Shown here: positions 1-43,859 of the stretch, piece by piece
How positions within the stretch are numbered: position 1 is the stretch's first letter
How the letters are laid out: the number at the start of each line of letters is the position of its first letter
UHGV virus genome: UHGV-0870948
DNA: 43,859 bases
Reading direction: 5' to 3' (one strand)
DNA from: a virus
Notes under the pieces: generated by a model
The model's database searches: none
Told to the model about the DNA's origin: nothing
Seen by the model: only the letters and a program-made list of their open reading frames with translations
Program-made: the position numbers and the translations under genes

Positions 1-67
1 TTTCACGATTACGCGCAATACCCCTGAGAACCGCCATGAACAAGGGCTTCATGATTTGTGATTTTAG

Positions 68-91
68 TTTGGTACGCAATTTGGTACACAA
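68..91 (+). repeat. Two tandem 12-bp direct repeats (TTTGGTACGCAA, TTTGGTACACAA); candidate integrase arm-type sites at the integrase-distal prophage end
   Basis: Core TGGTACRC is repeated here and three more times just upstream of int at 43654-43700, all in the same orientation. Confidence 0.4.
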
Positions 92-240
92 CACAATTTT
101 CACTTCAGCGGGTAGTCATCAAACTCACCATAACGAGCATCGTTAATGATGTATGTGATCACCACAAACATCACATCTGGACTAGTTCCGTTTTCATGCG
201 CAGGTATTTGTTCACGCCTCCCTTTCTGCAAATCCTAAAG

Positions 241-3987: not shown

Positions 3988-4596
3988 CAGTTTACCCCGT
4001 CGGTACTGCTTCCACCACGCTGAACACCACCATGAGTGTGTGTATCATCGATTGGCTTGCCATTAGCCTTCACGCTCCCCAAAAACTCAACAGCACCAGT
4101 GATTTTTGAAGCCACACCAGAAACCACAGACCCCACCATGCCCCCCATCCAGGTTAACAGGCCATGAATGGTTACTTTCTCAGAAAAATCAGCCAGAGGG
4201 GCAACCACATCAAGACCACCTGGAGCGACAATTTTAATTTTCCTGGTATCAGGATTAAGCTCAAAATAGGTGCTGCCGTCATCACTACGCAACTGTGTGG
4301 CACTGGTATTAATACCGCTAATCTTCCTTGCCTGCGACTGGGGACCGACAATACAAAACGCATCCGATAAATCATGCATTCTGTCATCGACCGACTCCTG
4401 TATCCCGCCACTCTGCCACCAGAAATCAATACAACGATCGGCAAAAATCACCAAACATTCATCACCGGCTTTAACTGGGAACGTTAGCGTACATCCTCCG
4501 CCGCGCGGGAATACCACTGGCACATCCACCAGCAATGGGTAATTTTTGGTAATGCGGTTGCCGTCATTATCCTTTTCAACCGAACGGATAGCAGGC
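3987..4596 (-). pseudogene. Baseplate spike protein (gpV / Mu gp45-like), 3' portion separated from its 5' end by the IS66-family insertion
   Basis: Frame continues ...PAIRSVEKDNDGNRITKNYPLLVDVPVVF...; the PA codons lie in the left TSD copy and rejoin in frame with the fragment at 7138-7288. Confidence 0.7.
4589..4596. repeat. Target-site duplication, left copy (TAGCAGGC)
   Basis: Identical 8-mer abuts both ends of the IS66-family element. Confidence 0.8.
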
Positions 4597-4626
4597 GTAA
4601 GCGTCAACGGAGCACCGTATTGACGC

Positions 4627-6240
4627 TTATTTATTAGTGAGTACTACGTTCCATGGCAGGAGTTCGTCAACTCGGTTGGAAGGCCATTCCGGCAGTACGC
4701 TCAGGATATGGCGCAGATACGCTTCCGGATCGATACCATTCAACCGGCAGGTGCCGATCAGCCCGTACAACAGTGCACCACGCTCGCCTCCGTGATCGCT
4801 ACCGAAGAACACGTAATTTTTCTTTCCGAGACAGACTGCACGAAGCGCTCTTTCCGCTGTGTTATTGTCCGCCTCCGCCAGACCGTCATCACAGAAGTTG
4901 CACAACGCAACCCAGTGCTTCCTGATATACCGGAACGCATCTCTCAGACGGCATTTTTTCGATAACGTGTGTTCTTTCTCCTGCATCAGCTTATACAGGG
5001 AAGTCAGTAGCGGTTTACTCTGCATTTGCCTGACCGCCAGGCGTTCAGACACCGGCAACCCGCGTATTTCGTGCTCAATGGCGTACAGTTCGCCGATTAG
5101 TTTCAGTGCTTCTTCCGCCGTCGCGCTTTTGGTACTGATATATACATCGTGGATTTTGCGCCGTGCATGAGCCCAGCATCCTGCTTCCGTCAACGCGCCG
5201 CCTTCACGTTCGGCACTGAACAGCCGATCGTAACCTGCGAACGCATCTGCCTGCAGGATACCCCGGAAGGGACGAAGGTGTTGCTCCGGATGTTTACCCT
5301 GATGGTCCGGTGAGTAGGCGAACCAGACCGCCGGAGGTTCTGGCGAACCGGCATTTCGGTCATCCCGGACATACGTCCAGATATATCCTGTTTTCGCCTT
5401 CTTCCTGCCCGGTGCCAGTACTTTTACTGGTGTGTCATCAGTGTGAACCTTGCGGGTGTTCATCACATAACTGTACAGGGCATCATTCAGCGGAGTCATT
5501 AACTGGCAGCACGCATCAACCCAGTTGGAGAGTAAGGCACGGCTCAGTTCGACACCCTGGCGGGCAAAGATTTCACTCTGACGATACAGTGGCAGGTGTT
5601 CGCAGTATTTTCCCGTTAACACGCGGGCAAGTAACCCCGGGCCCGCGATACCACGCTCTATCGGACGGGATGGTGCCGGTGCTTCAACGATGCAGTCACA
5701 TTTTGTACAGGCTTTTTTTACCCGTTCTGTGCGGATCACTTTCAGGGCGCTGCTCACCAGTTCCAGTTGTTCTGCGCTGACTTCCCCCAGATAATCCAGC
5801 TCACCGCCACACTCCGGGCAACAGCTTTCTTCAGGCTCCAGGCGGTATATTTCACGGGGGAGATGTGCCGGTAACGGACGACGATGGCGCGACTGTCGCA
5901 ACTGGCGGGGAACCAGCGGGTCATCCTCACGCCCACTGTAACGATCGCTTTCCTGCTCGCGTTGTTTCAGCAGGGCTTCAGCCTGTTCAACCTCACGACG
6001 CAGTTTTTCAGAACGGGTTCCGAACAGCATCCGGCGCAGTTTTTCTATCTGAGCCCGCAGATGCTCTATTTCCCGTTCATCTTCTTCGATCTTTTCTTCG
6101 GCACGTGCCAGTGCAGAGCGCAGGAAGGCCTCCGTCTCTTCAACCAGACTCAGTTGCTGGTCTTTCTGACGGAGGGCTTCAGCCTGCTCAGAGAGCAGCC
6201 TTTCCAGCTCAGCGATGCGAATGAGGTATTTCTGACTCAT
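4627..6240 (-). CDS. tnpC: IS66-family transposase TnpC
   Basis: 537-aa ORF with N-terminal coiled-coil, CxxC...CxxC zinc motif and conserved IS66 transposase core. Confidence 0.85.
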   Translation of the reverse strand: MSQKYLIRIAELERLLSEQAEALRQKDQQLSLVEETEAFLRSALARAEEKIEEDEREIEHLRAQIEKLRRMLFGTRSEKLRREVEQAEALLKQREQESDRYSGREDDPLVPRQLRQSRHRRPLPAHLPREIYRLEPEESCCPECGGELDYLGEVSAEQLELVSSALKVIRTERVKKACTKCDCIVEAPAPSRPIERGIAGPGLLARVLTGKYCEHLPLYRQSEIFARQGVELSRALLSNWVDACCQLMTPLNDALYSYVMNTRKVHTDDTPVKVLAPGRKKAKTGYIWTYVRDDRNAGSPEPPAVWFAYSPDHQGKHPEQHLRPFRGILQADAFAGYDRLFSAEREGGALTEAGCWAHARRKIHDVYISTKSATAEEALKLIGELYAIEHEIRGLPVSERLAVRQMQSKPLLTSLYKLMQEKEHTLSKKCRLRDAFRYIRKHWVALCNFCDDGLAEADNNTAERALRAVCLGKKNYVFFGSDHGGERGALLYGLIGTCRLNGIDPEAYLRHILSVLPEWPSNRVDELLPWNVVLTNK

Positions 6241-6270
6241 GGCCGTTTTTATAATGCGGTCAGGAGTTTT

Positions 6271-6621
6271 TTACAACATTGTCAGTGCGTTAAGGCGGGA
6301 TGTTTTTGGCTGACGCCAGTCCAGCTTATCGAGGAGCATTGCCAGTTGCGAGCGGGTAATGGATATCTTACCGTCACGCACCGCAGGCCAGATAAACTGA
6401 CCTTCCTCAAGGCGTTTGGTGAACAGGCACAGACCATCAGCATCAGCCCACAGGATTTTAATCGTGTCTCCCCGTCGGCCACGGAAGATAAACAGGTGAC
6501 CGGAGAAGGGGTTATCATCCAGCACATGCTGTATTTGCTCCCCCAGACCGTTGAAGGATTTACGCATATCAGTAACGCCGGCAACGAGCCAGATACGGGT
6601 ACCTGATGGGAGTGAAATCAT
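6271..6621 (-). CDS. tnpB: IS66-family accessory protein TnpB (Orf2)
   Basis: 116-aa ORF MISLPSGTRIWLVAGVTDMRKSFNGL... typical of IS66 Orf2; overlaps tnpA. Confidence 0.8.
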   Translation of the reverse strand: MISLPSGTRIWLVAGVTDMRKSFNGLGEQIQHVLDDNPFSGHLFIFRGRRGDTIKILWADADGLCLFTKRLEEGQFIWPAVRDGKISITRSQLAMLLDKLDWRQPKTSRLNALTML

Positions 6622-7055
6622 CGTCCCCTCCCGGTCAGCTCACGGATCAACACCGTGAGCAGCTCTGGTGAAGGATTTTCCAGCATCATTTTACCGTAAT
6701 GGAATTCCACATGGCAGGAAGCTGCACAAGCAACTGATAATGCCTCCGGAGCAGGAGCATCTGTAGCACAGCGCGTGGTGTCGATAAGTTCCACTGGAAC
6801 CAGAGTCGGAGAGGCCGGAAAAGATTGTGATACTGTAGGGCCTACAATAGTTGGAGGCATTCTGCGAGAAATACGTCCTTCTCTTTGCCAGAGGCGTAGC
6901 CATTTAAAAATCAGGTTGTTATCAACGCCATGTTCCCGGGCCAGTTGTGCAACATTGGCATTTGGTTTCGAAGCCAGTTCAACCATATGAAGTTTAAATT
7001 CATTAGAAAATATCCGGCGGGTTCCGGAGCGCCAGTCTGTAGGTTTATCCATCAA
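6618..7055 (-). CDS. tnpA: IS66-family accessory protein TnpA (Orf1)
   Basis: 145-aa ORF with HTH-like segment (FSNEFKLHMVELASKPNANVAQLAREHGV), first gene of the IS66 operon. Confidence 0.75.
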   Translation of the reverse strand: MMDKPTDWRSGTRRIFSNEFKLHMVELASKPNANVAQLAREHGVDNNLIFKWLRLWQREGRISRRMPPTIVGPTVSQSFPASPTLVPVELIDTTRCATDAPAPEALSVACAASCHVEFHYGKMMLENPSPELLTVLIRELTGRGR

Positions 7056-7137
7056 TAGAACTCCGTCTAATTTAGAAGGAGCTCTAATTTAGTCTGCAAG
7101 GAGCAGGTGTTACAGACGGCATTGGCTTTACGCTTAC

Positions 7138-7145
7138 TAGCAGGC
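7138..7145. repeat. Target-site duplication, right copy (TAGCAGGC)
   Basis: Identical to 4589-4596. Confidence 0.8.
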
Positions 7146-7288
7146 TGCACAACTGCCGTCACCGCATCAGGATCGAATGACTGAATAATGCCAGGCAAGG
7201 CGACACGGATCTGGTTCTTTGTTGTTTCCCGTTCAGATTTGAATGTTTCGGCAAGGTCGCCGCTGCGGGTCTGGTCAGATACTGCCAT
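7138..7288 (-). pseudogene. Baseplate spike protein, 5' portion (first 50 codons) truncated by the IS insertion
   Basis: MAVSDQTRSGDLAETFKSERETTKNQIRVALPGIIQSFDPDAVTAVVQPA, then reads into IS sequence; rejoins in frame with 3987-4596 when the IS and one TSD copy are removed. Confidence 0.7.
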
Positions 7289-7307
7289 TTAGTAGGCTCC
7301 AGAAAGC

Positions 7308-7330
7308 AAAAAACCCGCCGAAGCGGGTTT
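7308..7330. terminator. Rho-independent (bidirectional) terminator downstream of the HEPN-like gene
   Basis: AAAAAA-CCCGC-CGAA-GCGGG-TTT: GC stem flanked by an A-run on one side and a T-run on the other. Confidence 0.65.
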
Positions 7331-7347
7331 GATAACGTTAATTTTAT

Positions 7348-7743
7348 TCATGAAACTCTAGCAGACTTTAGCTGTTCCCAGCGCTCAAAATAGAGTTCAG
7401 CAGCCTCGATTGCATCCTGTCCCATCTCTTTCGAAACAGTCACATTCGTCAGATCATAGTCAGCTTCATTTCTAGCATCCCGCCACTGGCGAAGTACGAA
7501 AGCTAGGGATTTCAGTGTATTTGTCGGGTATGGCTCTGATTTGCACTCTGAGGGCGTTGACATATAACCCACAGTATTTTTGTGATGCTCATGGGTAAAA
7601 TGCGGTATGGCAGTAAGTGAGCTAATAGACTCATGTAACATACTGTAATACGCCCTTGAGATAGCGCTTCGAAATCCACTCTCAATATTTTCAGACAGAC
7701 ATAATCGAGCGGTATCGAGAATCTGATTGCTAGTTACCGACAT
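7348..7743 (-). CDS. HEPN-like small helical protein (candidate toxin/RNase component)
   Basis: 131 aa; AISRAYYSMLHE (R-x6-H, resembles the conserved HEPN helix) and LRQWRDARNEADY; overlaps the upstream gene by 14 nt; region visibly AT-richer than flanks. Confidence 0.5.
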   Translation of the reverse strand: MSVTSNQILDTARLCLSENIESGFRSAISRAYYSMLHESISSLTAIPHFTHEHHKNTVGYMSTPSECKSEPYPTNTLKSLAFVLRQWRDARNEADYDLTNVTVSKEMGQDAIEAAELYFERWEQLKSARVS

Positions 7744-8503
7744 GGTAGCTCACCCCCGTATGCAACTGACGCGGAGAGGTAAATCTAGCTAACAGGGAAC
7801 AATCATCCAGTTTAGATTCAGCGCAGACTCTATCAGCCAAGTCGAAGTTCATTTTGGCAATAGTTTTAGGCTCAAGATTTTTAATATCAACAACATAGCA
7901 ACCGCTTCCACTAAGCTGAACGAAACCTGTCGTAGCCTTGTATTCACTTAGCAAGCCCCAGATTATGGATGCTAAGGTCTGGAACTGTTCCTTCGAGCAC
8001 TGTGTGGCGCTATAGAAATTATCCATTTCTGCAAGGAGTTCTTCTTTGTGCTTCATAGCATTACTCCTGCCTTCTGATTCAGAAAGAAGCTTAATGTGCT
8101 CTTCCATATAAAATTTTAACTGTTCACGCTCGCCGCAACGGTACGCCCAACTGTATGCGTTGTGACTAAAGAGTTTTGTCCGATACTTCTTTGCCAGCGG
8201 GACATAGACATCCTTGAGTTCATTATAGCTAAATGTATTAATTAAAATGTGATGATAGTGCATTGCCAACGTTACATCGTTTACTTCTAGGCTTATCCTG
8301 AGATAACGTAACGCGCTTTCAATCTTTCCGGTTATTGCATCCAGATAAGATAGTGCAATGTTGGTAGCAGGCGTTGGAGAGACAGAAAGTTCCTCTCGAA
8401 TTTTCTTTTCAGTGAAGGGATCTAAACTTTCCCTATCCAATAGAAGCGCATTGAATTGTTCAATATATTTTTGCGCTTTTTCTAATGGGATGCCTGCCGC
8501 CAT
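7730..8503 (-). CDS. Hypothetical protein, partner of the HEPN-like protein
   Basis: 257 aa, predicted mainly helical, no motif recognised; translationally coupled to the HEPN-like ORF. Confidence 0.55.
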   Translation of the reverse strand: MAAGIPLEKAQKYIEQFNALLLDRESLDPFTEKKIREELSVSPTPATNIALSYLDAITGKIESALRYLRISLEVNDVTLAMHYHHILINTFSYNELKDVYVPLAKKYRTKLFSHNAYSWAYRCGEREQLKFYMEEHIKLLSESEGRSNAMKHKEELLAEMDNFYSATQCSKEQFQTLASIIWGLLSEYKATTGFVQLSGSGCYVVDIKNLEPKTIAKMNFDLADRVCAESKLDDCSLLARFTSPRQLHTGVSYHVGN

Positions 8504-17178: not shown

Positions 17179-17220
17179 CGGGTCATCCTTAATGGCCCCC
17201 GCCAGGGGGCCATGTGGCTG

Positions 17221-26740: not shown

Positions 26741-26816
26741 TGGTGCTGGTTAACGGACTTGAACCGCTACCCATTCGCTTACAAGGCGACTGCTCTACCA
26801 TTGGAGCTAAACCAGC
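26741..26816 (-). tRNA. tRNA-Thr (anticodon UGU)
   Basis: Hand-folded cloverleaf: 7-bp perfect acceptor stem, D stem GCTC/GAGC, anticodon loop CTTGTAA, T loop TTCAAGT, 3' ACCA; 76 nt. Confidence 0.65.
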
Positions 26817-26821
26817 ATATT

Positions 26822-26896
26822 TGGCGGGACAGCGTGGACTCGAACCACGATAAGAAGGTTAACAGCCTTCCGTAATGACCTTTATACGACTGACCC
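26822..26896 (-). tRNA. tRNA-Asn-like (anticodon GUU), possibly degenerate
   Basis: T arm CGTGG-TTCGAGT-CCACG, anticodon arm GAAGG-CTGTTAA-CCTTC, 3' GCCA; one acceptor-stem and one D-stem mismatch. Confidence 0.4.
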
Positions 26897-26959
26897 AAAT
26901 AAAAAAAGCCACCGTTGCAACTTAAGAGTCACTAACGGCAGCTTACCCTCTAATTATGG

Positions 26960-28141
26960 CTAAATGGCTAATTGCATGTCAAGGCTTTTAACGGCAACAT
27001 GCTTAACTTTCTCAACACGTTTACGCATTTTGAAAGCATTTTGCATTGGCTGGTATAAAACAAATAATGACGCTTTCAGGATGTCGTCAATTTCGTTTCT
27101 ACAGGTTGCCAGTGAAGGTTTTCTCCATCCCTCGCCACCACGTCCACACATCTTGCGTGGCTTTGCAGTCGCGTGATAGTAGGATGCAATTGCTCGCTTA
27201 GATGAACCATGAGCGTAGTAGCTGAGGAGGATGCCAAAGGCTTTCTTGTCAATGTACATGACGGAATCGACGACCTGAGAAATCAACATTCCATCATCAT
27301 CATTGCACATTGGCCTTGTCATAACTCTTCCCGGCTCTACGCTCTCCATGAACTTCGCTATTACGCTGCTCATGCGCTTTTCCAGACGACCTGAATAAAC
27401 CCATGCGCCCCACAGTTCAAGCCAGCCATTCAGCCACTCGTGCTGCTCTTTGGTGAGGTTTAGTTCTCTTATGCCCACGCGCCTTCTCCCTGTACCTGAA
27501 TCAATGTGAGGTTTTCCGCAGAACACTGCGCCGGTATCGATATACATCTGGTTGGCAAACTTGAGTAGTTTCACTGCTGGCGTATGACCAAAGATGAACG
27601 TGTCAGCTCCTTTGATTTCTTTCACGATCCCGTCTTGTGAGTTGCTGATTCGTTCGCGGTTCCAGATTACCTGCTGATGATCAACTGGCTTTCCAAATTC
27701 GTATTCGTCACAAGGATAATCGGCGTGGCAGATGACATATTTTTTACCTTCGCTCACCAGTTCGATGATTAACGGAAGTTCATCTGCTTTATGGGCAAGA
27801 GCTTTAGCCAGAATTTCTTTGTCGTAATCGAGATTAAAGAACCAGCCACCGCCATTAAACAGCCAGTGATTGACGTTTCCGCGCTCTGATAAGCCATCAA
27901 TCATCATTTGCTCATGGTTTCCACGTACAACTCGGAACCAGGGGAATGTGATTAATTCCAGACATTCGACGTTCTCTGTACCGCGATCGACCAAATCGCC
28001 AACCGAGATAAGCAGGTCTTTTTTGGTGTCGAATCCTATCGTCTCCAGTTTTTTCATCAGGTTCGTGTAGCATCCGTGCAGATCGCCAACTACCCAAATA
28101 TTTCGGTATTTGCTGCCATCAATTCTTTCGTAATAGCGCAT
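26960..28141 (-). CDS. NinI-type Ser/Thr phosphatase domain continuous in frame with a Q-like late antiterminator domain (fusion or frameshift)
   Basis: N-terminal part matches lambda NinI (GDLHGC...GNHE); C-terminal part has Q-like motifs LELWGAW and [11 protein letters not shown]; no stop between them; the alternative frame after the A4 run encodes [14 protein letters not shown]-stop. Confidence 0.6.
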
Positions 28142-28325
28142 CTCTTTCACTCCATCCGCGATGAACCATGAGAACGTCGTTGACGATGGCGTGCATTTTC
28201 CCGTCTTTATCATCAACGTATTTTCTGACCGTGCCGCGACTACATTTCAGTCTGCGTGCTACTTCTGTCTGGTTTCCGTATGCTTCAACGAGCATGTCTG
28301 GAATGGTTTTTACTGAGAACGTCAT
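28119..28325 (-). CDS. ninH: NinH
   Basis: 68 aa, [36 protein letters not shown]...; lambda NinH-like HTH. Confidence 0.8.
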
Positions 28326-28927
28326 GCGGCCTCACTTCTGCTATTTCGCAGGTCTTTGAGTTTCTGTTGGTACTCTGCCTTGATCGCCTTGCACTCTTCG
28401 ATAGTCCAGCGATGGCGGTTATGGTTTGATTCGATTTCGTCTACTGCTTCCTGCCCGATGCGGATAATCAGTTCGACGCGATACGGAACGAGATTTCCAC
28501 TTTTGTGCTGGTTGCACACCACGCATTGCTTGTGAATATTGCGTTCATCAAATCGGAGTTGAGGTGCCGCAGCAGTTGTCCGGTAATGTCCGGCATCCCA
28601 CTGAGCAGACGTGAGCGTTCCGCACGAGATACATGGTAAGTCGCGGTCTCTTTCTCTGATGAAGGCGTTTACGGCTTGTTGGGCTTGTTTAATCCAGTAA
28701 CTGCGGGGCTTTAAGGCGAGTTTTCGAATCTTCAGTTTATCTTTCTGTTTCTGCTCCTCTCGTCGTCGTTTCTTCTCTGCTGCTTTTTCCGCTTTTTTTC
28801 GCTGTTTACTTTGTAGTTTGAGTGCTAACTGAGTTCCGTGTTCCGGGCAGCACCACCACTGATTTGAGAATGCCGGGTGAAACCATTCCTTGCATATTTT
28901 GCATTTCCTTCGCGCTGGTTTAGCCAT
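28322..28927 (-). CDS. ninG: NinG (Rap) recombination endonuclease
   Basis: 201 aa, [31 protein letters not shown]...; lambda NinG-like. Confidence 0.85.
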
Positions 28928-34226: not shown

Positions 34227-34319
34227 TTAGTTTAAGTACCTTAGCTATTAGAATTAAGCTATGGAAAATAAAAATCACTGACGACAGAACAGCTGGAAGA
34301 CGCTAAGCGGCTTAAGGCT

Positions 34320-36836: not shown

Positions 36837-36897
36837 ATGCATACCAATAACGCTTCACTCGAGGCGTTTTTCGTTATGTATAAATAAGGAGCACACC

Positions 36898-37038
36898 ATG
36901 CAATATGCCATTGCAGGGTGGCCTGTTGCTGGCTGCCCTTCCGAATCTTTACTTGAACGAATCACACGTAAATTACGTGATGGATGGAAACGCCTTATCG
37001 ACATACTTAATCAGCCAGGAGTTCCCAAAAATGGATAA
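36898..37038 (+). CDS. Small hypothetical protein
   Basis: 46 aa from ATG preceded by TAAGGAGC. Confidence 0.4.
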   Translation: MQYAIAGWPVAGCPSESLLERITRKLRDGWKRLIDILNQPGVPKNG

Positions 37039-42486: not shown

Positions 42487-43645
42487 TGTGCCAGAACAAT
42501 TTATCAGCGTGAAGCTCATACGCTTTGCGCTGAGCCTCTATCCAATCGTGTTTATTGTATACTGACATTATCCCGCCAAGTTCATGACCGAGCATTCGCT
42601 CAGTAACATGAGGCTCGACATTCATCTCGGACAGACGTGTAACAAGCGTTCTTCTGAAATCATGTGTTCGCCAGTAACCTAGGTCCACCCCTCCCCTTAT
42701 TCGATTTACGAATCGGTTGGCTGCAGCGATGCTGATCGGTTTGTTTATGTCTTCTCCAGGGAAAAGAACATCATTGTACGTTGTCATGGCCTTTTCGAGG
42801 AAAGGCTTAATTTGTTCGAAGATTGGACGGCGGATAACATTACCCATCTTGCTATGCTCTTTCGGTACGGTCCATACGTTGTCCAGCAGGTCAAACTCTG
42901 TCTTTGTTGCCAGCCTAAGCTCTGAGAGCCTCGCCCCCCACAGCATAAGCATCTGATGAAGTAGCTTATTTGACGTAGACGCACGGCTTCTTTCAATAGC
43001 AAGCCAAATCTTAGCCAGTTCGTGATACGACAGTACCCGATCCCCTACCTCAGCGCGGGAGCCGAAGTCCCTTGGTTGGATGCTCATAATTGCGCAACTA
43101 TCTATCAACTGACGCCGCATGCACCAACTTATTGCTGATCTTAGTTGACTTAGCACCTGTCTTGCTCGGCGTGGATTATCTCTTTCTTCTTCGGTAAGCA
43201 GGTCAACCCATTGCTTAACCGTGATAGAAGATGCCGGACGATTAGGAAAGGCGTCATGCATGCGCTTCATAACCGTTGATCGGTAAAGTGCCTGGGTCTT
43301 TTCTCTGAGAGTTGTAGAGACGTAGTTGTCGAACCAGTAGTCGAGACACTGGGCGACCGTCATGGAGTTCTCCACCTTCTCTTCAAAATAAGTGCGTGGA
43401 TCCGTTCCTGAGAAATAGAGCTTTCGCAAGTCAGCAGTGATCTGTCTGGCATCCTTCAAAGACAGGGATGGGTATCGACCAAGCCCAAGTCGATTAGGCT
43501 TGCCATGCCAGCGATAGCGGTACTGGAACTGGATGACCCCCTTCGGTGAAATTCGTACGCTGAGGCCATCGGCATCAGCCACTTCTTGTGGGCCCGAATA
43601 TGGTTTACCATAAATAGTACGCAGTTTTGTGTCGCTTATAGCCAT
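42467..43645 (-). CDS. int: Tyrosine-type site-specific integrase
   Basis: 392 aa; C-terminal catalytic region with HDFRRT and LGH...SVYNKHDW (R...H-x-x-R...Y pattern). Confidence 0.9.
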   Translation of the reverse strand: MAISDTKLRTIYGKPYSGPQEVADADGLSVRISPKGVIQFQYRYRWHGKPNRLGLGRYPSLSLKDARQITADLRKLYFSGTDPRTYFEEKVENSMTVAQCLDYWFDNYVSTTLREKTQALYRSTVMKRMHDAFPNRPASSITVKQWVDLLTEEERDNPRRARQVLSQLRSAISWCMRRQLIDSCAIMSIQPRDFGSRAEVGDRVLSYHELAKIWLAIERSRASTSNKLLHQMLMLWGARLSELRLATKTEFDLLDNVWTVPKEHSKMGNVIRRPIFEQIKPFLEKAMTTYNDVLFPGEDINKPISIAAANRFVNRIRGGVDLGYWRTHDFRRTLVTRLSEMNVEPHVTERMLGHELGGIMSVYNKHDWIEAQRKAYELHADKLFWHIRSISD

Positions 43646-43653
43646 AAATAATA

Positions 43654-43700
43654 TTTGGTACGCTCAAAAATAATGGTTTGGTACACATCTGGTACACAAT
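43654..43700 (+). repeat. Three direct copies of the TGGTACRC arm-type motif immediately upstream of int
   Basis: TTTGGTACGCTC, TTTGGTACACAT, CTGGTACACAAT; same motif and orientation as 68-91. Confidence 0.45.
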
Positions 43701-43859
43701 ATCACATGGACAACAGCGCACAGTAAACAACTATATTTGACGTTCGTAGACATACTCAGGTGAAAAAATGGTTGTTTTTCGAGTTATAACAGACAGTTAA
43801 TTAACTACAGTGGACAATGCTAGACAATGACAGACACAGATAAACAACCTACCTTCCTC

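What the first reader, a model, noticed from the sequence alone, without database searches (positions are those of the whole stretch)
27469..27520. ninI reads through into a Q-like antiterminator because of an A4 run
Seen in sequence: the 418-aa ORF joins a lambda NinI-type phosphatase domain to a Q-like domain ([15 protein letters not shown]) with no stop. At the minus-strand GGAAAACC (plus 27512-27515 TTTT), dropping one A makes the phosphatase frame read ...[18 protein letters not shown]-stop, the expected NinI C-terminus. A GGAGAAGG-N5-GTG candidate start for a separate Q lies at 27478. The two genes are either fused or artefactually joined.
Basis: partly seen in the sequence, partly recalled or inferred. 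Interest (0 to 1): 0.5.

Follow-up and report, generated by a model that had tools for sequence, protein, structure and literature searches.

The report
One extra base joins ninI and Q
Two ordinary, normally overlapping prophage genes (the NinI phosphatase and a phage-21-type Q late-gene antiterminator) read as one long gene here only because of a single extra A found in no related sequence, so this is a sequencing error or a recent private mutation, not a new fusion protein.

Summary
A continuous ORF at 26960-28216(-) is 418 aa from TTG, or 393 aa from the real ATG at 28141. It joins a lambda NinI phosphatase to a phage-21-type Q.

The cause is one extra A in ninI codon 210 (GGAAAACC; plus-strand T4 at 27512-27515). 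Removing it restores a 223-aa NinI ending ...[15 protein letters not shown]-stop, 222/223 identical to WP_089602605.1. The stop then lies 10 nt inside Q.

Q starts at GTG 27478, behind GGAG. It is 100% identical to WP_015973887.1, and its first residue matches residue 1 of solved Q21.

The extra A is private:
- 0 of 1098 E. coli complete-genome records carry it.
- 0 of 72 phage records carry it.
- The exact pattern has no match in IMG/VR, species-representative genomes or metagenomes.
- No fused homologue appears in a search of 5.8 billion protein clusters.

A second private homopolymer indel (A6 to A5) breaks the cI repressor at codon 5, which a lysogen should not survive. That points to assembly error (about 0.55). 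A real mutation in a decaying prophage (about 0.40) is supported by an IS66 element that splits the tail spike gene. Either way Q remains a separate gene. Interest is low.

The parts
26960..28141 (-). Continuous 393-codon ORF as read in the window. It consists of NinI residues 1-209, a 12-residue out-of-frame linker ([12 protein letters not shown]), then the whole of Q. The mechanical ORF list extends it to a TTG at 28216, giving 418 aa.
27516..28141 (-). ninI in its native frame, from ATG 28141 to codon 209. This is lambda-type Ser/Thr phosphatase with all metal-binding motifs present (GDLHG, GDLVDRG, GNHE, H139, H186).
   Evidence: aligns to 1G5B residues 1-210, E 9e-138. PF00149; invariant columns.
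27512..27515 (-). The A4 run (plus-strand TTTT) in ninI codons 209/210. Relatives have A3 (GGAAACC or GGAAATC). It lies 33 nt upstream of the Q start codon.
27469..27511 (-). Displaced 3' end of ninI. It reads (N)[16 protein letters not shown] only if one A is removed. It carries the conserved last beta-strand of the phosphatase.
27482..27489 (-). Shine-Dalgarno-like GGAGAAGG for Q. The GGAG core lies 7 nt before the GTG. It is kept in relatives that have lost ninH-ninI.
26960..27478 (-). Q gene: GTG start, 172 aa plus stop. It is a phage-21-type antiterminator, 100% identical to WP_015973887.1.
27567..27567 (-). Private substitution, plus-strand A versus G in 134/134 aligned relatives. It changes CCA to CTA, giving NinI P192L at a nearly invariant proline, 52 nt from the extra A.
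28119..28325 (-). ninH, the upstream neighbour. It overlaps the ninI start by 23 nt, as in relatives.
26953..26982 (-). Late-promoter-like site (TTGACA-18-CATAAT, 11 of 12) at the 3' end of Q. It is followed by tRNA-Asn, tRNA-Thr and the lysis cassette.
   Evidence: This is a consensus match only.
34261..34281 (+). Start of the lambda-cI-like repressor gene, carrying the second private homopolymer indel. A5 at 34270-34274 replaces the A6 of relatives, giving M-E-N-K-N-H-stop. It is listed because it bears on whether the ninI insertion is an artefact.

Best explanation
ninI and Q are the ordinary last two genes of a lambdoid nin region. In every relative, ninI ends at a TAA that lies 10 nt inside Q (GTGGGCATAA). 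Q is translated from its own GGAG-N7-GTG/ATG start.

In this window a single extra A in ninI codon 210 moves ninI into the Q frame. The ninI stop is therefore skipped, and the two genes read as one 393-codon ORF. I judge the extra A most likely to be a homopolymer-length error of the assembly rather than biology. Under that reading the real DNA encodes a normal 223-aa NinI and a normal 172-aa Q21-type antiterminator.

Shown: the insertion, its privacy, the independent Q start, and a second private indel in cI.

Inferred: that the cause is a sequencing or assembly error.
For: Privacy of the extra A:
- A 64-nt query centred on it matched 1098 E. coli complete-genome records, none at 99% or above.
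- An 80-nt query gave 79-nt spans in all listed E. coli hits.
- 72 phage records matched, none at 99% or above.
- The exact A4 pattern had 0 matches in IMG/VR, GTDB species representatives and JGI metagenomes. The A3 pattern hit at least 120 IMG/VR contigs.
- Over 4659 nt at 99.27% identity to strain TB06053, the only gap is this base.

Normal state of the locus:
- Repairing the base gives a NinI 222/223 identical to WP_089602605.1, and Q is 100% identical to WP_015973887.1.
- The exact 172-aa Q is called as a separate gene in 3686 blocks of the collection. In 7 of the 10 places shown a 223-aa phosphatase overlaps it by 10 nt.

Evidence for error specifically:
- The window holds a second private single-base homopolymer change, A6 to A5 at 34270-34274. 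It truncates the cI repressor after 6 codons. None of 146 E. coli records and none of the IMG/VR contigs carry it.
- The repaired protein aligns to lambda cI 3BDN from residue 3 (E 3e-52), so helix 1 would be lost.
- The window is a prophage cut at its att core in sbcB. From established lambda biology, a repressor-null prophage with apparently intact N, O, DnaB, Q and lysis genes should kill its host. The cI change is therefore hard to accept as real.
- The assembly runs through a 2.5-kb IS66 element, which hints at long-read data.
Against: - No reads or platform information are available.
- A3 to A4 is an unusual error. All 23 runs of 6 or more bases that could be compared have a length also seen in relatives. 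No other coding indel was found in about 35 kb with at least two relatives aligned. The assembly is therefore not generally homopolymer-noisy.
- A private non-synonymous change (P192L) sits 52 nt away. That would fit a gene already drifting.
- The prophage is really defective, because an IS66 element splits the tail spike gene. Relaxed selection on ninI is therefore plausible.
- ninI is dispensable in lambda (PMC10695390).
Confidence: 0.55

Rival explanations
1. The extra A is a real, recent, strain-private insertion in a decaying prophage. NinI loses its conserved C-terminal strand and becomes a pseudogene. Ribosomes that start at the ninI ATG run on into Q and make a NinI(1-209)-linker-Q chimera. 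Normal Q can still be made from its untouched GGAG-GTG start. The mutation is neutral or slightly harmful and has no new function.
For: - The prophage is demonstrably defective. An IS66-family element at 4597-7137, with an 8-bp target duplication TAGCAGGC, splits the tail spike gene.
- A private P192L substitution at a nearly invariant proline lies 52 nt from the insertion, while the rest of ninI-Q has no private change among more than 100 relatives.
- ninI is non-essential in lambda when Q is supplied (PMC10695390).
- Other database copies of ninI also carry lesions: singleton indels in its A6 runs in 2 of about 108 IMG/VR loci, a disrupted ninI in L126, and ninH-ninI deletions in L127 and L129.
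- A different in-frame NinI-lambda-Q allele occurs in at least 4 independent assemblies.
- Long homopolymers in the window are otherwise correct.
Against: - The allele is seen nowhere else.
- The companion private indel in cI is biologically implausible as a real change in a lysogen, which suggests the assembly contains indel errors.
- A run of three A's is a poor slippage target compared with the three A6 runs in the same gene.
Confidence: 0.4
2. The fusion is real and functional. A NinI phosphatase domain is tethered to a Q21-type antiterminator and rides on the late-gene elongation complex, or it regulates Q.
For: - Residues 1-6 of Q21 are disordered in the loading and loaded RNAP complexes, so an N-terminal extension is not excluded by the structures (bioRxiv 10.1101/651190).
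- An independent in-frame NinI-lambda-Q ORF exists in several assemblies.
Against: - The fusion is not conserved in any homologue.
- The junction is 12 residues of out-of-frame sequence.
- The fusion removes the phosphatase's conserved terminal beta-strand, residues 213-217 in the model, and the GNLTLxQVQG motif.
- Relatives with the identical Q do without ninI altogether (L127, L129, L138).
Confidence: 0.03
3. The A run is a programmed recoding site: ribosomal +1 frameshifting or transcriptional slippage yields both NinI and NinI-Q.
For: None beyond the presence of a short A run.
Against: - Relatives have A3 and need no recoding.
- GGA-AAA-CCU is not a known slippery motif, and A4 is far too short for transcriptional slippage (established knowledge).
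- The predicted local RNA structure is not significant (z -0.9) and is the same with A3 or A4.
- Rfam finds nothing here.
Confidence: 0.01

Closest known systems
Lambda ninI (orf221, lambda Ser/Thr phosphatase, PDB 1G5B) followed by Q, in the 'chain of interlinked genes' of the nin region
   Same: - Same gene order: ninG-ninH-ninI-Q, then the late promoter and lysis genes.
- The NinI part aligns to 1G5B residues 1-210 (E 9e-138).
- Stop and start overlap as in lambda, where the overlap is ATGA (seen in L140).
   Different: - Here the overlap is 10 nt (GTGGGCATAA) and Q belongs to the phage-21 family, not the lambda family.
- In this window one extra A abolishes the ninI stop.
Q of phage 21 (Q21; PDB 6JNX/6JNY, 6P18-6P1C), which forms a 'nozzle' on the RNA exit channel of RNA polymerase
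   Same: - Residues 222-383 of the ORF align colinearly to all 162 residues of Q21, starting at its Met1 (E 1e-90).
- PF06530 scores 88.6 bits against a cut-off of 26.
   Different: - This Q is 172 aa, with a diverged C-terminal third and a 10-residue tail.
- Its activity and Q-binding element were not tested here.
WP_089602605.1 and WP_015973887.1, the same locus in E. coli TB06053 and YZ22PE165 prophages
   Same: - 99.3% DNA identity over 4.7 kb, with the same prophage site next to sbcB in TB06053.
- Q is identical, and NinI is identical apart from P192L once the base is removed.
   Different: Those records have A3 and two annotated genes.
In-frame NinI-lambda-Q ORF (P0007, 427 aa, 'hypothetical protein C2705_004883')
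   Same: - A phosphatase ORF that runs without a stop into a Q gene.
- It is found in real assemblies from at least 4 samples.
   Different: - The Q family differs (PF03589).
- The cause differs: a junction 2 nt shorter, GGGGAAGACCATGA versus GGGAGAAGGCGCATGA.
- It keeps the full NinI C-terminal strand and recurs across samples, so it is a real allele.
Homopolymer-length errors of sequencing and assembly, and frameshift pseudogenes of decaying prophages
   Same: A single-base length change in a mononucleotide run, private to one sequence, paired with a second such change in cI.
   Different: The run is only 3-4 bases long, and the longer runs in the window have lengths also seen in relatives. 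Neither explanation is a perfect fit.

Membership tests
Lambda NinI / PP-lambda metallophosphoesterase | Sequence homology to lambda phosphatase and a Pfam Metallophos hit | tested here: met
   1G5B residues 1-210, E 9e-138. PF00149 scores 61.4 bits against a cut-off of 21.5.
Lambda NinI / PP-lambda metallophosphoesterase | Metal-binding motifs GDxHG, GDxVDRG, GNHE and the later histidines | tested here: met
   D20, H22, D49, R53, N75, H76, H139 and H186 are present in the window's protein. They are invariant in 35 homologues.
Lambda NinI / PP-lambda metallophosphoesterase | Complete C-terminus (conserved GNLTLxQVQG, last beta-strand) and its own stop codon | tested here: not met
   As read, the frame changes at codon 210 and there is no stop. 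Removing one A restores both. The strand at 213-217 comes from the model and the conservation.
Lambda NinI / PP-lambda metallophosphoesterase | Position between ninH and Q in the nin region | tested here: met
   NinG at 28322-28927 and NinH at 28119-28325 lie upstream, and Q lies downstream.
Q21-type antiterminator (PF06530) | Family profile above the curated cut-off and full-length colinearity with solved Q21 | tested here: met
   PF06530 scores 88.6 bits against 26. 6JNX residues 1-162 align with E 1e-90.
Q21-type antiterminator (PF06530) | Independent translation start, as a separate gene | tested here: met
   - GTG 27478 aligns with Met1 of Q21.
- GGAG lies 7 nt upstream.
- Four of ten relatives have ATG at that codon.
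- The start and SD persist where ninI is deleted.
- The exact 172-aa product is called separately in 3686 blocks.
Q21-type antiterminator (PF06530) | Late promoter with Q-binding element and terminator downstream, followed by lysis genes | tested here: inconclusive
   There is a promoter-like TTGACA-18-CATAAT at 26982-26953. Two tRNAs and then holin and lysozyme ORFs follow. The Q-binding element and terminator were not identified.
Q21-type antiterminator (PF06530) | Antitermination activity on RNA polymerase | not testable with these tools
   Needs a reporter or in vitro transcription assay.
Evolved two-domain fusion protein | The fused architecture recurs in homologues with a conserved junction | tested here: not met
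   - All 120 listed hits in a search of 5.8 billion clusters cover about 53% of the query, that is NinI alone.
- The exact protein is not on record.
- None of 1098 E. coli records carries the extra base.
Programmed frameshift / recoding site | Conserved slippery sequence with a stimulatory element | tested here: not met
   The A4 is not conserved. No significant structure is predicted. There is no Rfam match.

The most novel reading that the evidence does not exclude
The extra A is real. The resulting NinI(1-209)-Q21 chimera is made and still loads onto RNA polymerase, helped by the disordered N-terminus of Q21. This would place a possibly crippled Ser/Thr phosphatase domain at the RNA exit channel of the late-gene elongation complex. 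Together with the recurrent in-frame NinI-lambda-Q allele (P0007), it would suggest that phosphatase-Q fusions are a tolerated, perhaps used, state of lambdoid phages.
Probability: 0.03. Interest if true: 0.45.

Novelty: already known. Interest (0 to 1): 0.1.

Why it matters
It matters mostly for annotation. The 418-aa 'phosphatase-antiterminator' should not be reported as a new domain architecture. The locus should be annotated as a frameshifted (or to-be-verified) ninI plus a normal Q starting at 27478.

If the base is real, the practical question is whether Q dosage changes. Q sets the timing of late transcription and lysis. Ribosomes from ninI would now read through the Q start instead of terminating next to it. 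The prophage already has an IS66 element in its tail spike gene, so the consequence for phage production would be small.

The case also shows how easily overlapping nin-region genes fuse, since one indel in the last 45 nt is enough. Private indels in this record, including the one in cI, should be checked against reads before any biological reading.

Tried and rejected
- Looked for the same fused ORF elsewhere, by exact look-up from both the ATG and the TTG start and by homology search. Nothing was found.
- Tried to locate the source assembly through exact A4 patterns in IMG/VR, GTDB representatives and metagenomes, and through the DnaB protein. The A4 pattern is absent, and DnaB is too common (12421 blocks) to be informative. 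The sequencing platform therefore stays unknown.
- Tested for a generally error-prone assembly in three ways:
  - An indel scan against 137 related loci.
  - A split-gene scan.
  - A homopolymer audit.
  - These found only two frame-breaking private indels, in ninI and cI, and no deviation in runs of 6 or more. The window is not broadly noisy.
- Considered programmed frameshifting. The RNA fold is not significant and is identical for A3 and A4, there is no Rfam hit, and the site is not conserved. Rejected.
- One relative (L137) appeared to share the T4 run. It proved to be a C-to-A substitution (N210K) of unchanged length.
- Literature search for ninI-Q fusions returned nothing relevant. One search matched only authors named Nini and one call failed on a short term.

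Full report
**What is in the sequence**

The minus strand of 26960-28216 is one open frame of 418 codons from a TTG. The homologous start is the ATG at 28141, which gives 393 codons.

Pfam places Metallophos on residues 14-187 and Phage_antitermQ on residues 236-326. Against solved structures, residues 1-210 match lambda Ser/Thr phosphatase 1G5B (E 9e-138). Residues 222-383 match the Q protein of phage 21 (6JNX, 6P18) from its first residue to its last (E 1e-90).

The alignment to lambda phosphatase stops exactly at residue 210, where the window reads K instead of N. That is the GGAAAACC site, plus-strand TTTT at 27512-27515.

Removing one A in silico yields a 223-aa protein ending ...[18 protein letters not shown], with TAA at 27469-27471. 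It is 222/223 identical to WP_089602605.1, and the 172-aa Q frame from GTG 27478 is 100% identical to WP_015973887.1.

The only slip is the spacing, which is GGAGAAGG-N3-GTG rather than N5.

**What the normal state is**

In annotated relatives the two genes are separate and overlap by 10 nt. An example is ninI at 7208-7879 and Q at 7870-8388 in strain YZ22PE165. The same layout holds in TB06053, RM12581, S1 and E189.

The exact 172-aa Q of this window is called as a gene of its own in 3686 blocks of the public collection. In seven of the ten places shown it is preceded by a 223-aa phosphatase overlapping it by 10 nt.

Four of those ten relatives have ATG instead of GTG at the Q start. In two relatives that have lost ninH-ninI, the GGAG-like box and the start codon remain directly after ninG. 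Other relatives put the same Q straight after ninH.

**How special the extra A is**

- A 401-nt query found 419 full-length E. coli matches. All those listed span 400 nt, and the same holds for 30 phage records.
- A 64-nt query centred on the run matched 1098 E. coli complete-genome records, none at 99% or above. 72 phage records matched the 80-nt query, again none at 99% or above.
- The exact A4 pattern has no match in IMG/VR, in one genome per species of GTDB, or in JGI metagenomes.
- Among 137 loci fetched, every one has one base fewer. One (L137) has AAAA through a C-to-A substitution of unchanged length.
- Over 4659 nt at 99.27% identity to TB06053, this base is the only gap.
- No protein in a search of 5.8 billion clusters covers both halves of the ORF. 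The exact fused product is not on record.

The fusion is private to this sequence. It is not an evolved architecture.

**Artefact or mutation?**

The reads are not available, so I looked for indirect evidence in the rest of the window.

*The second private indel.* A scan of all indels against the relatives found only two that are private and lie in coding sequence: the ninI base and a one-base loss in an A6 run at 34270-34274.

That second indel sits in codons 4-5 of the lambda-cI-like repressor, which starts at ATG 34261. It gives M-E-N-K-N-H-stop. It too is absent from all 146 E. coli records with this gene and from IMG/VR. The repaired protein aligns to full-length lambda repressor 3BDN from residue 3 (E 3e-52). 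The frameshift would therefore remove the N-terminal arm and helix 1.

*The window is a chromosomal prophage.* Its last bases and first bases join into an sbcB-like N-terminal coding stretch around a core TTTCACGATTACG. Relatives have the same integrase next to sbcB.

From established lambda biology, a prophage without repressor but with apparently intact N, O, DnaB, Q and lysis genes should kill its host. This makes the cI change hard to accept as real. By extension it makes an assembly with occasional single-base indel errors the most economical explanation for both changes.

*A hint at long reads.* The assembly also runs through a 2.5-kb IS66-family element, which suggests long-read data.

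*Points against an artefact.*
- The window is not generally noisy. No other gene is split.
- All 23 comparable runs of six or more bases have a length also seen in relatives.
- An insertion in a three-base run is an unusual error.
- The prophage is really decaying. The IS66 element at 4597-7137 has terminal repeats GTAAGCG and an 8-bp target duplication TAGCAGGC. It splits the tail spike gene after about codon 52.
- ninI carries a private P192L change at a nearly invariant proline only 52 nt from the insertion. The rest of ninI-Q has no private change among more than 100 relatives.
- ninI is dispensable in lambda (PMC10695390).
- Lesions of ninI occur in other database copies.

I put the artefact at about 0.55 and a real private mutation at about 0.40.

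**What would happen if it is real (inference)**

The phosphatase would keep all its metal ligands. It would lose the conserved GNLTLxQVQG segment, which is a beta-strand (213-217) in a model of the wild-type protein (pLDDT 78, pTM 0.83). It would probably be unstable.

Ribosomes starting at the ninI ATG would no longer terminate 7 nt past the Q start. They would continue and make a chimera of about 45 kDa. The Q ribosome-binding site and GTG are untouched, so normal Q could still be made.

Residues 1-6 of Q21 are disordered in its RNA polymerase complexes (bioRxiv 10.1101/651190). An N-terminal extension is therefore not excluded by the structures, but nothing suggests it is useful.

A recoding site is not supported. 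The run is not conserved, the local RNA fold is not significant (z -0.9) and is the same with A3 or A4, and Rfam reports nothing here.

**Comparison with what is known**

This is the lambda nin-region pattern of interlinked genes, ninG-ninH-ninI-Q, with a phage-21-family Q in place of lambda Q.

Membership in the NinI family is met for homology, motifs and position. It fails only on the complete C-terminus, and one base restores that. Membership in the Q21 family is met for profile, colinearity and independent start. The downstream promoter-like site, the tRNAs and the lysis genes fit, but the Q-binding element and activity were not tested.

The closest thing to a true fusion is a different allele. 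It is a 427-aa NinI-lambda-Q ORF present in at least four independent assemblies, caused by a junction 2 nt shorter. That shows such read-through alleles arise and persist, but it is unrelated to this A4.

**Verdict**

The feature is an ordinary gene pair joined by one private base. It is most likely an assembly error, otherwise a recent pseudogenising mutation in a defective prophage. Novelty: already known components. Interest: low (0.1).

Noticed in passing
window 34261-34281 (A5 run at 34270-34274): The lambda-cI-like repressor gene is frameshifted at codons 4-5. The window has A5 where 5/5 fetched relatives and 146/146 E. coli records have A6, giving M-E-N-K-N-H-stop. The repaired protein aligns to lambda cI 3BDN from residue 3. 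A repressor-null prophage should be lethal, so this is either an assembly error or a sign of something else keeping the prophage silent.
   Followed up: yes
window 4597-7137 (target duplication at 4589-4596 and 7138-7145): A 2541-bp IS66-family element splits the tail spike gene after about codon 52, so the prophage cannot make normal tails. Its three ORFs are HTH_Tnp_1 at 6618-7055, TnpB_IS66 at 6271-6621 and the DDE_Tnp_IS66 transposase at 4627-6240. It has terminal repeats GTAAGCG and an 8-bp duplication TAGCAGGC.
   Followed up: yes
window 27567: A private substitution (A versus G in 134/134 aligned relatives) gives NinI P192L at a nearly invariant proline. It lies 52 nt from the extra A and is the only private base change in the deeply covered ninI-Q stretch.
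   Followed up: partly
window 1-100 and 43640-43859: The two ends of the window join into a short sbcB-like N-terminal coding stretch (...PTFL|FHDY...) around TTTCACGATTACG. The window is therefore a prophage opened at its att core in the 5' end of sbcB, and the phage supplies a replacement sbcB start. Both ends also carry repeated TTTGGTAC(G/A)C motifs (68-92 and 43654-43700), which may be integrase arm sites.
   Followed up: partly
loci L148-L151 (protein P0007): A 427-aa in-frame NinI-lambda-Q ORF occurs in at least four independent assemblies: two NCBI genomes and two SRA-derived assemblies. Its junction is GGGGAAGACCATGA instead of GGGAGAAGGCGCATGA. This is a real, recurrent read-through allele of the same gene pair with a different Q family.
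   Followed up: partly
loci L126, L127, L129, L138: Relatives with the identical Q protein lack a normal ninI. In L127 and L129, ninG is followed directly by Q with its own SD and ATG. In L138, ninH is followed by Q. L126 has a disrupted ninI. Two IMG/VR relatives have singleton indels in A6 runs of ninI (window positions 27746 and 28026).
   Followed up: partly
window 26741-26896: tRNA-Thr(TGT) and tRNA-Asn(GTT) genes lie between Q (with its late-promoter-like site) and the holin gene, as in the closest relatives.
   Followed up: no
window 17196-17210: An intergenic GC hairpin (GGCCCCCGCCAGGGGGCC) has C5/G5 where strain BY63 has C4/G4. This is a compensated length change in a terminator-like stem between two head genes.
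   Followed up: partly
window 36885-36943: Rfam match to the lambda cIII thermoregulator element (88.5 bits, gathering 50). This is ordinary for a lambdoid early-left operon.
   Followed up: no
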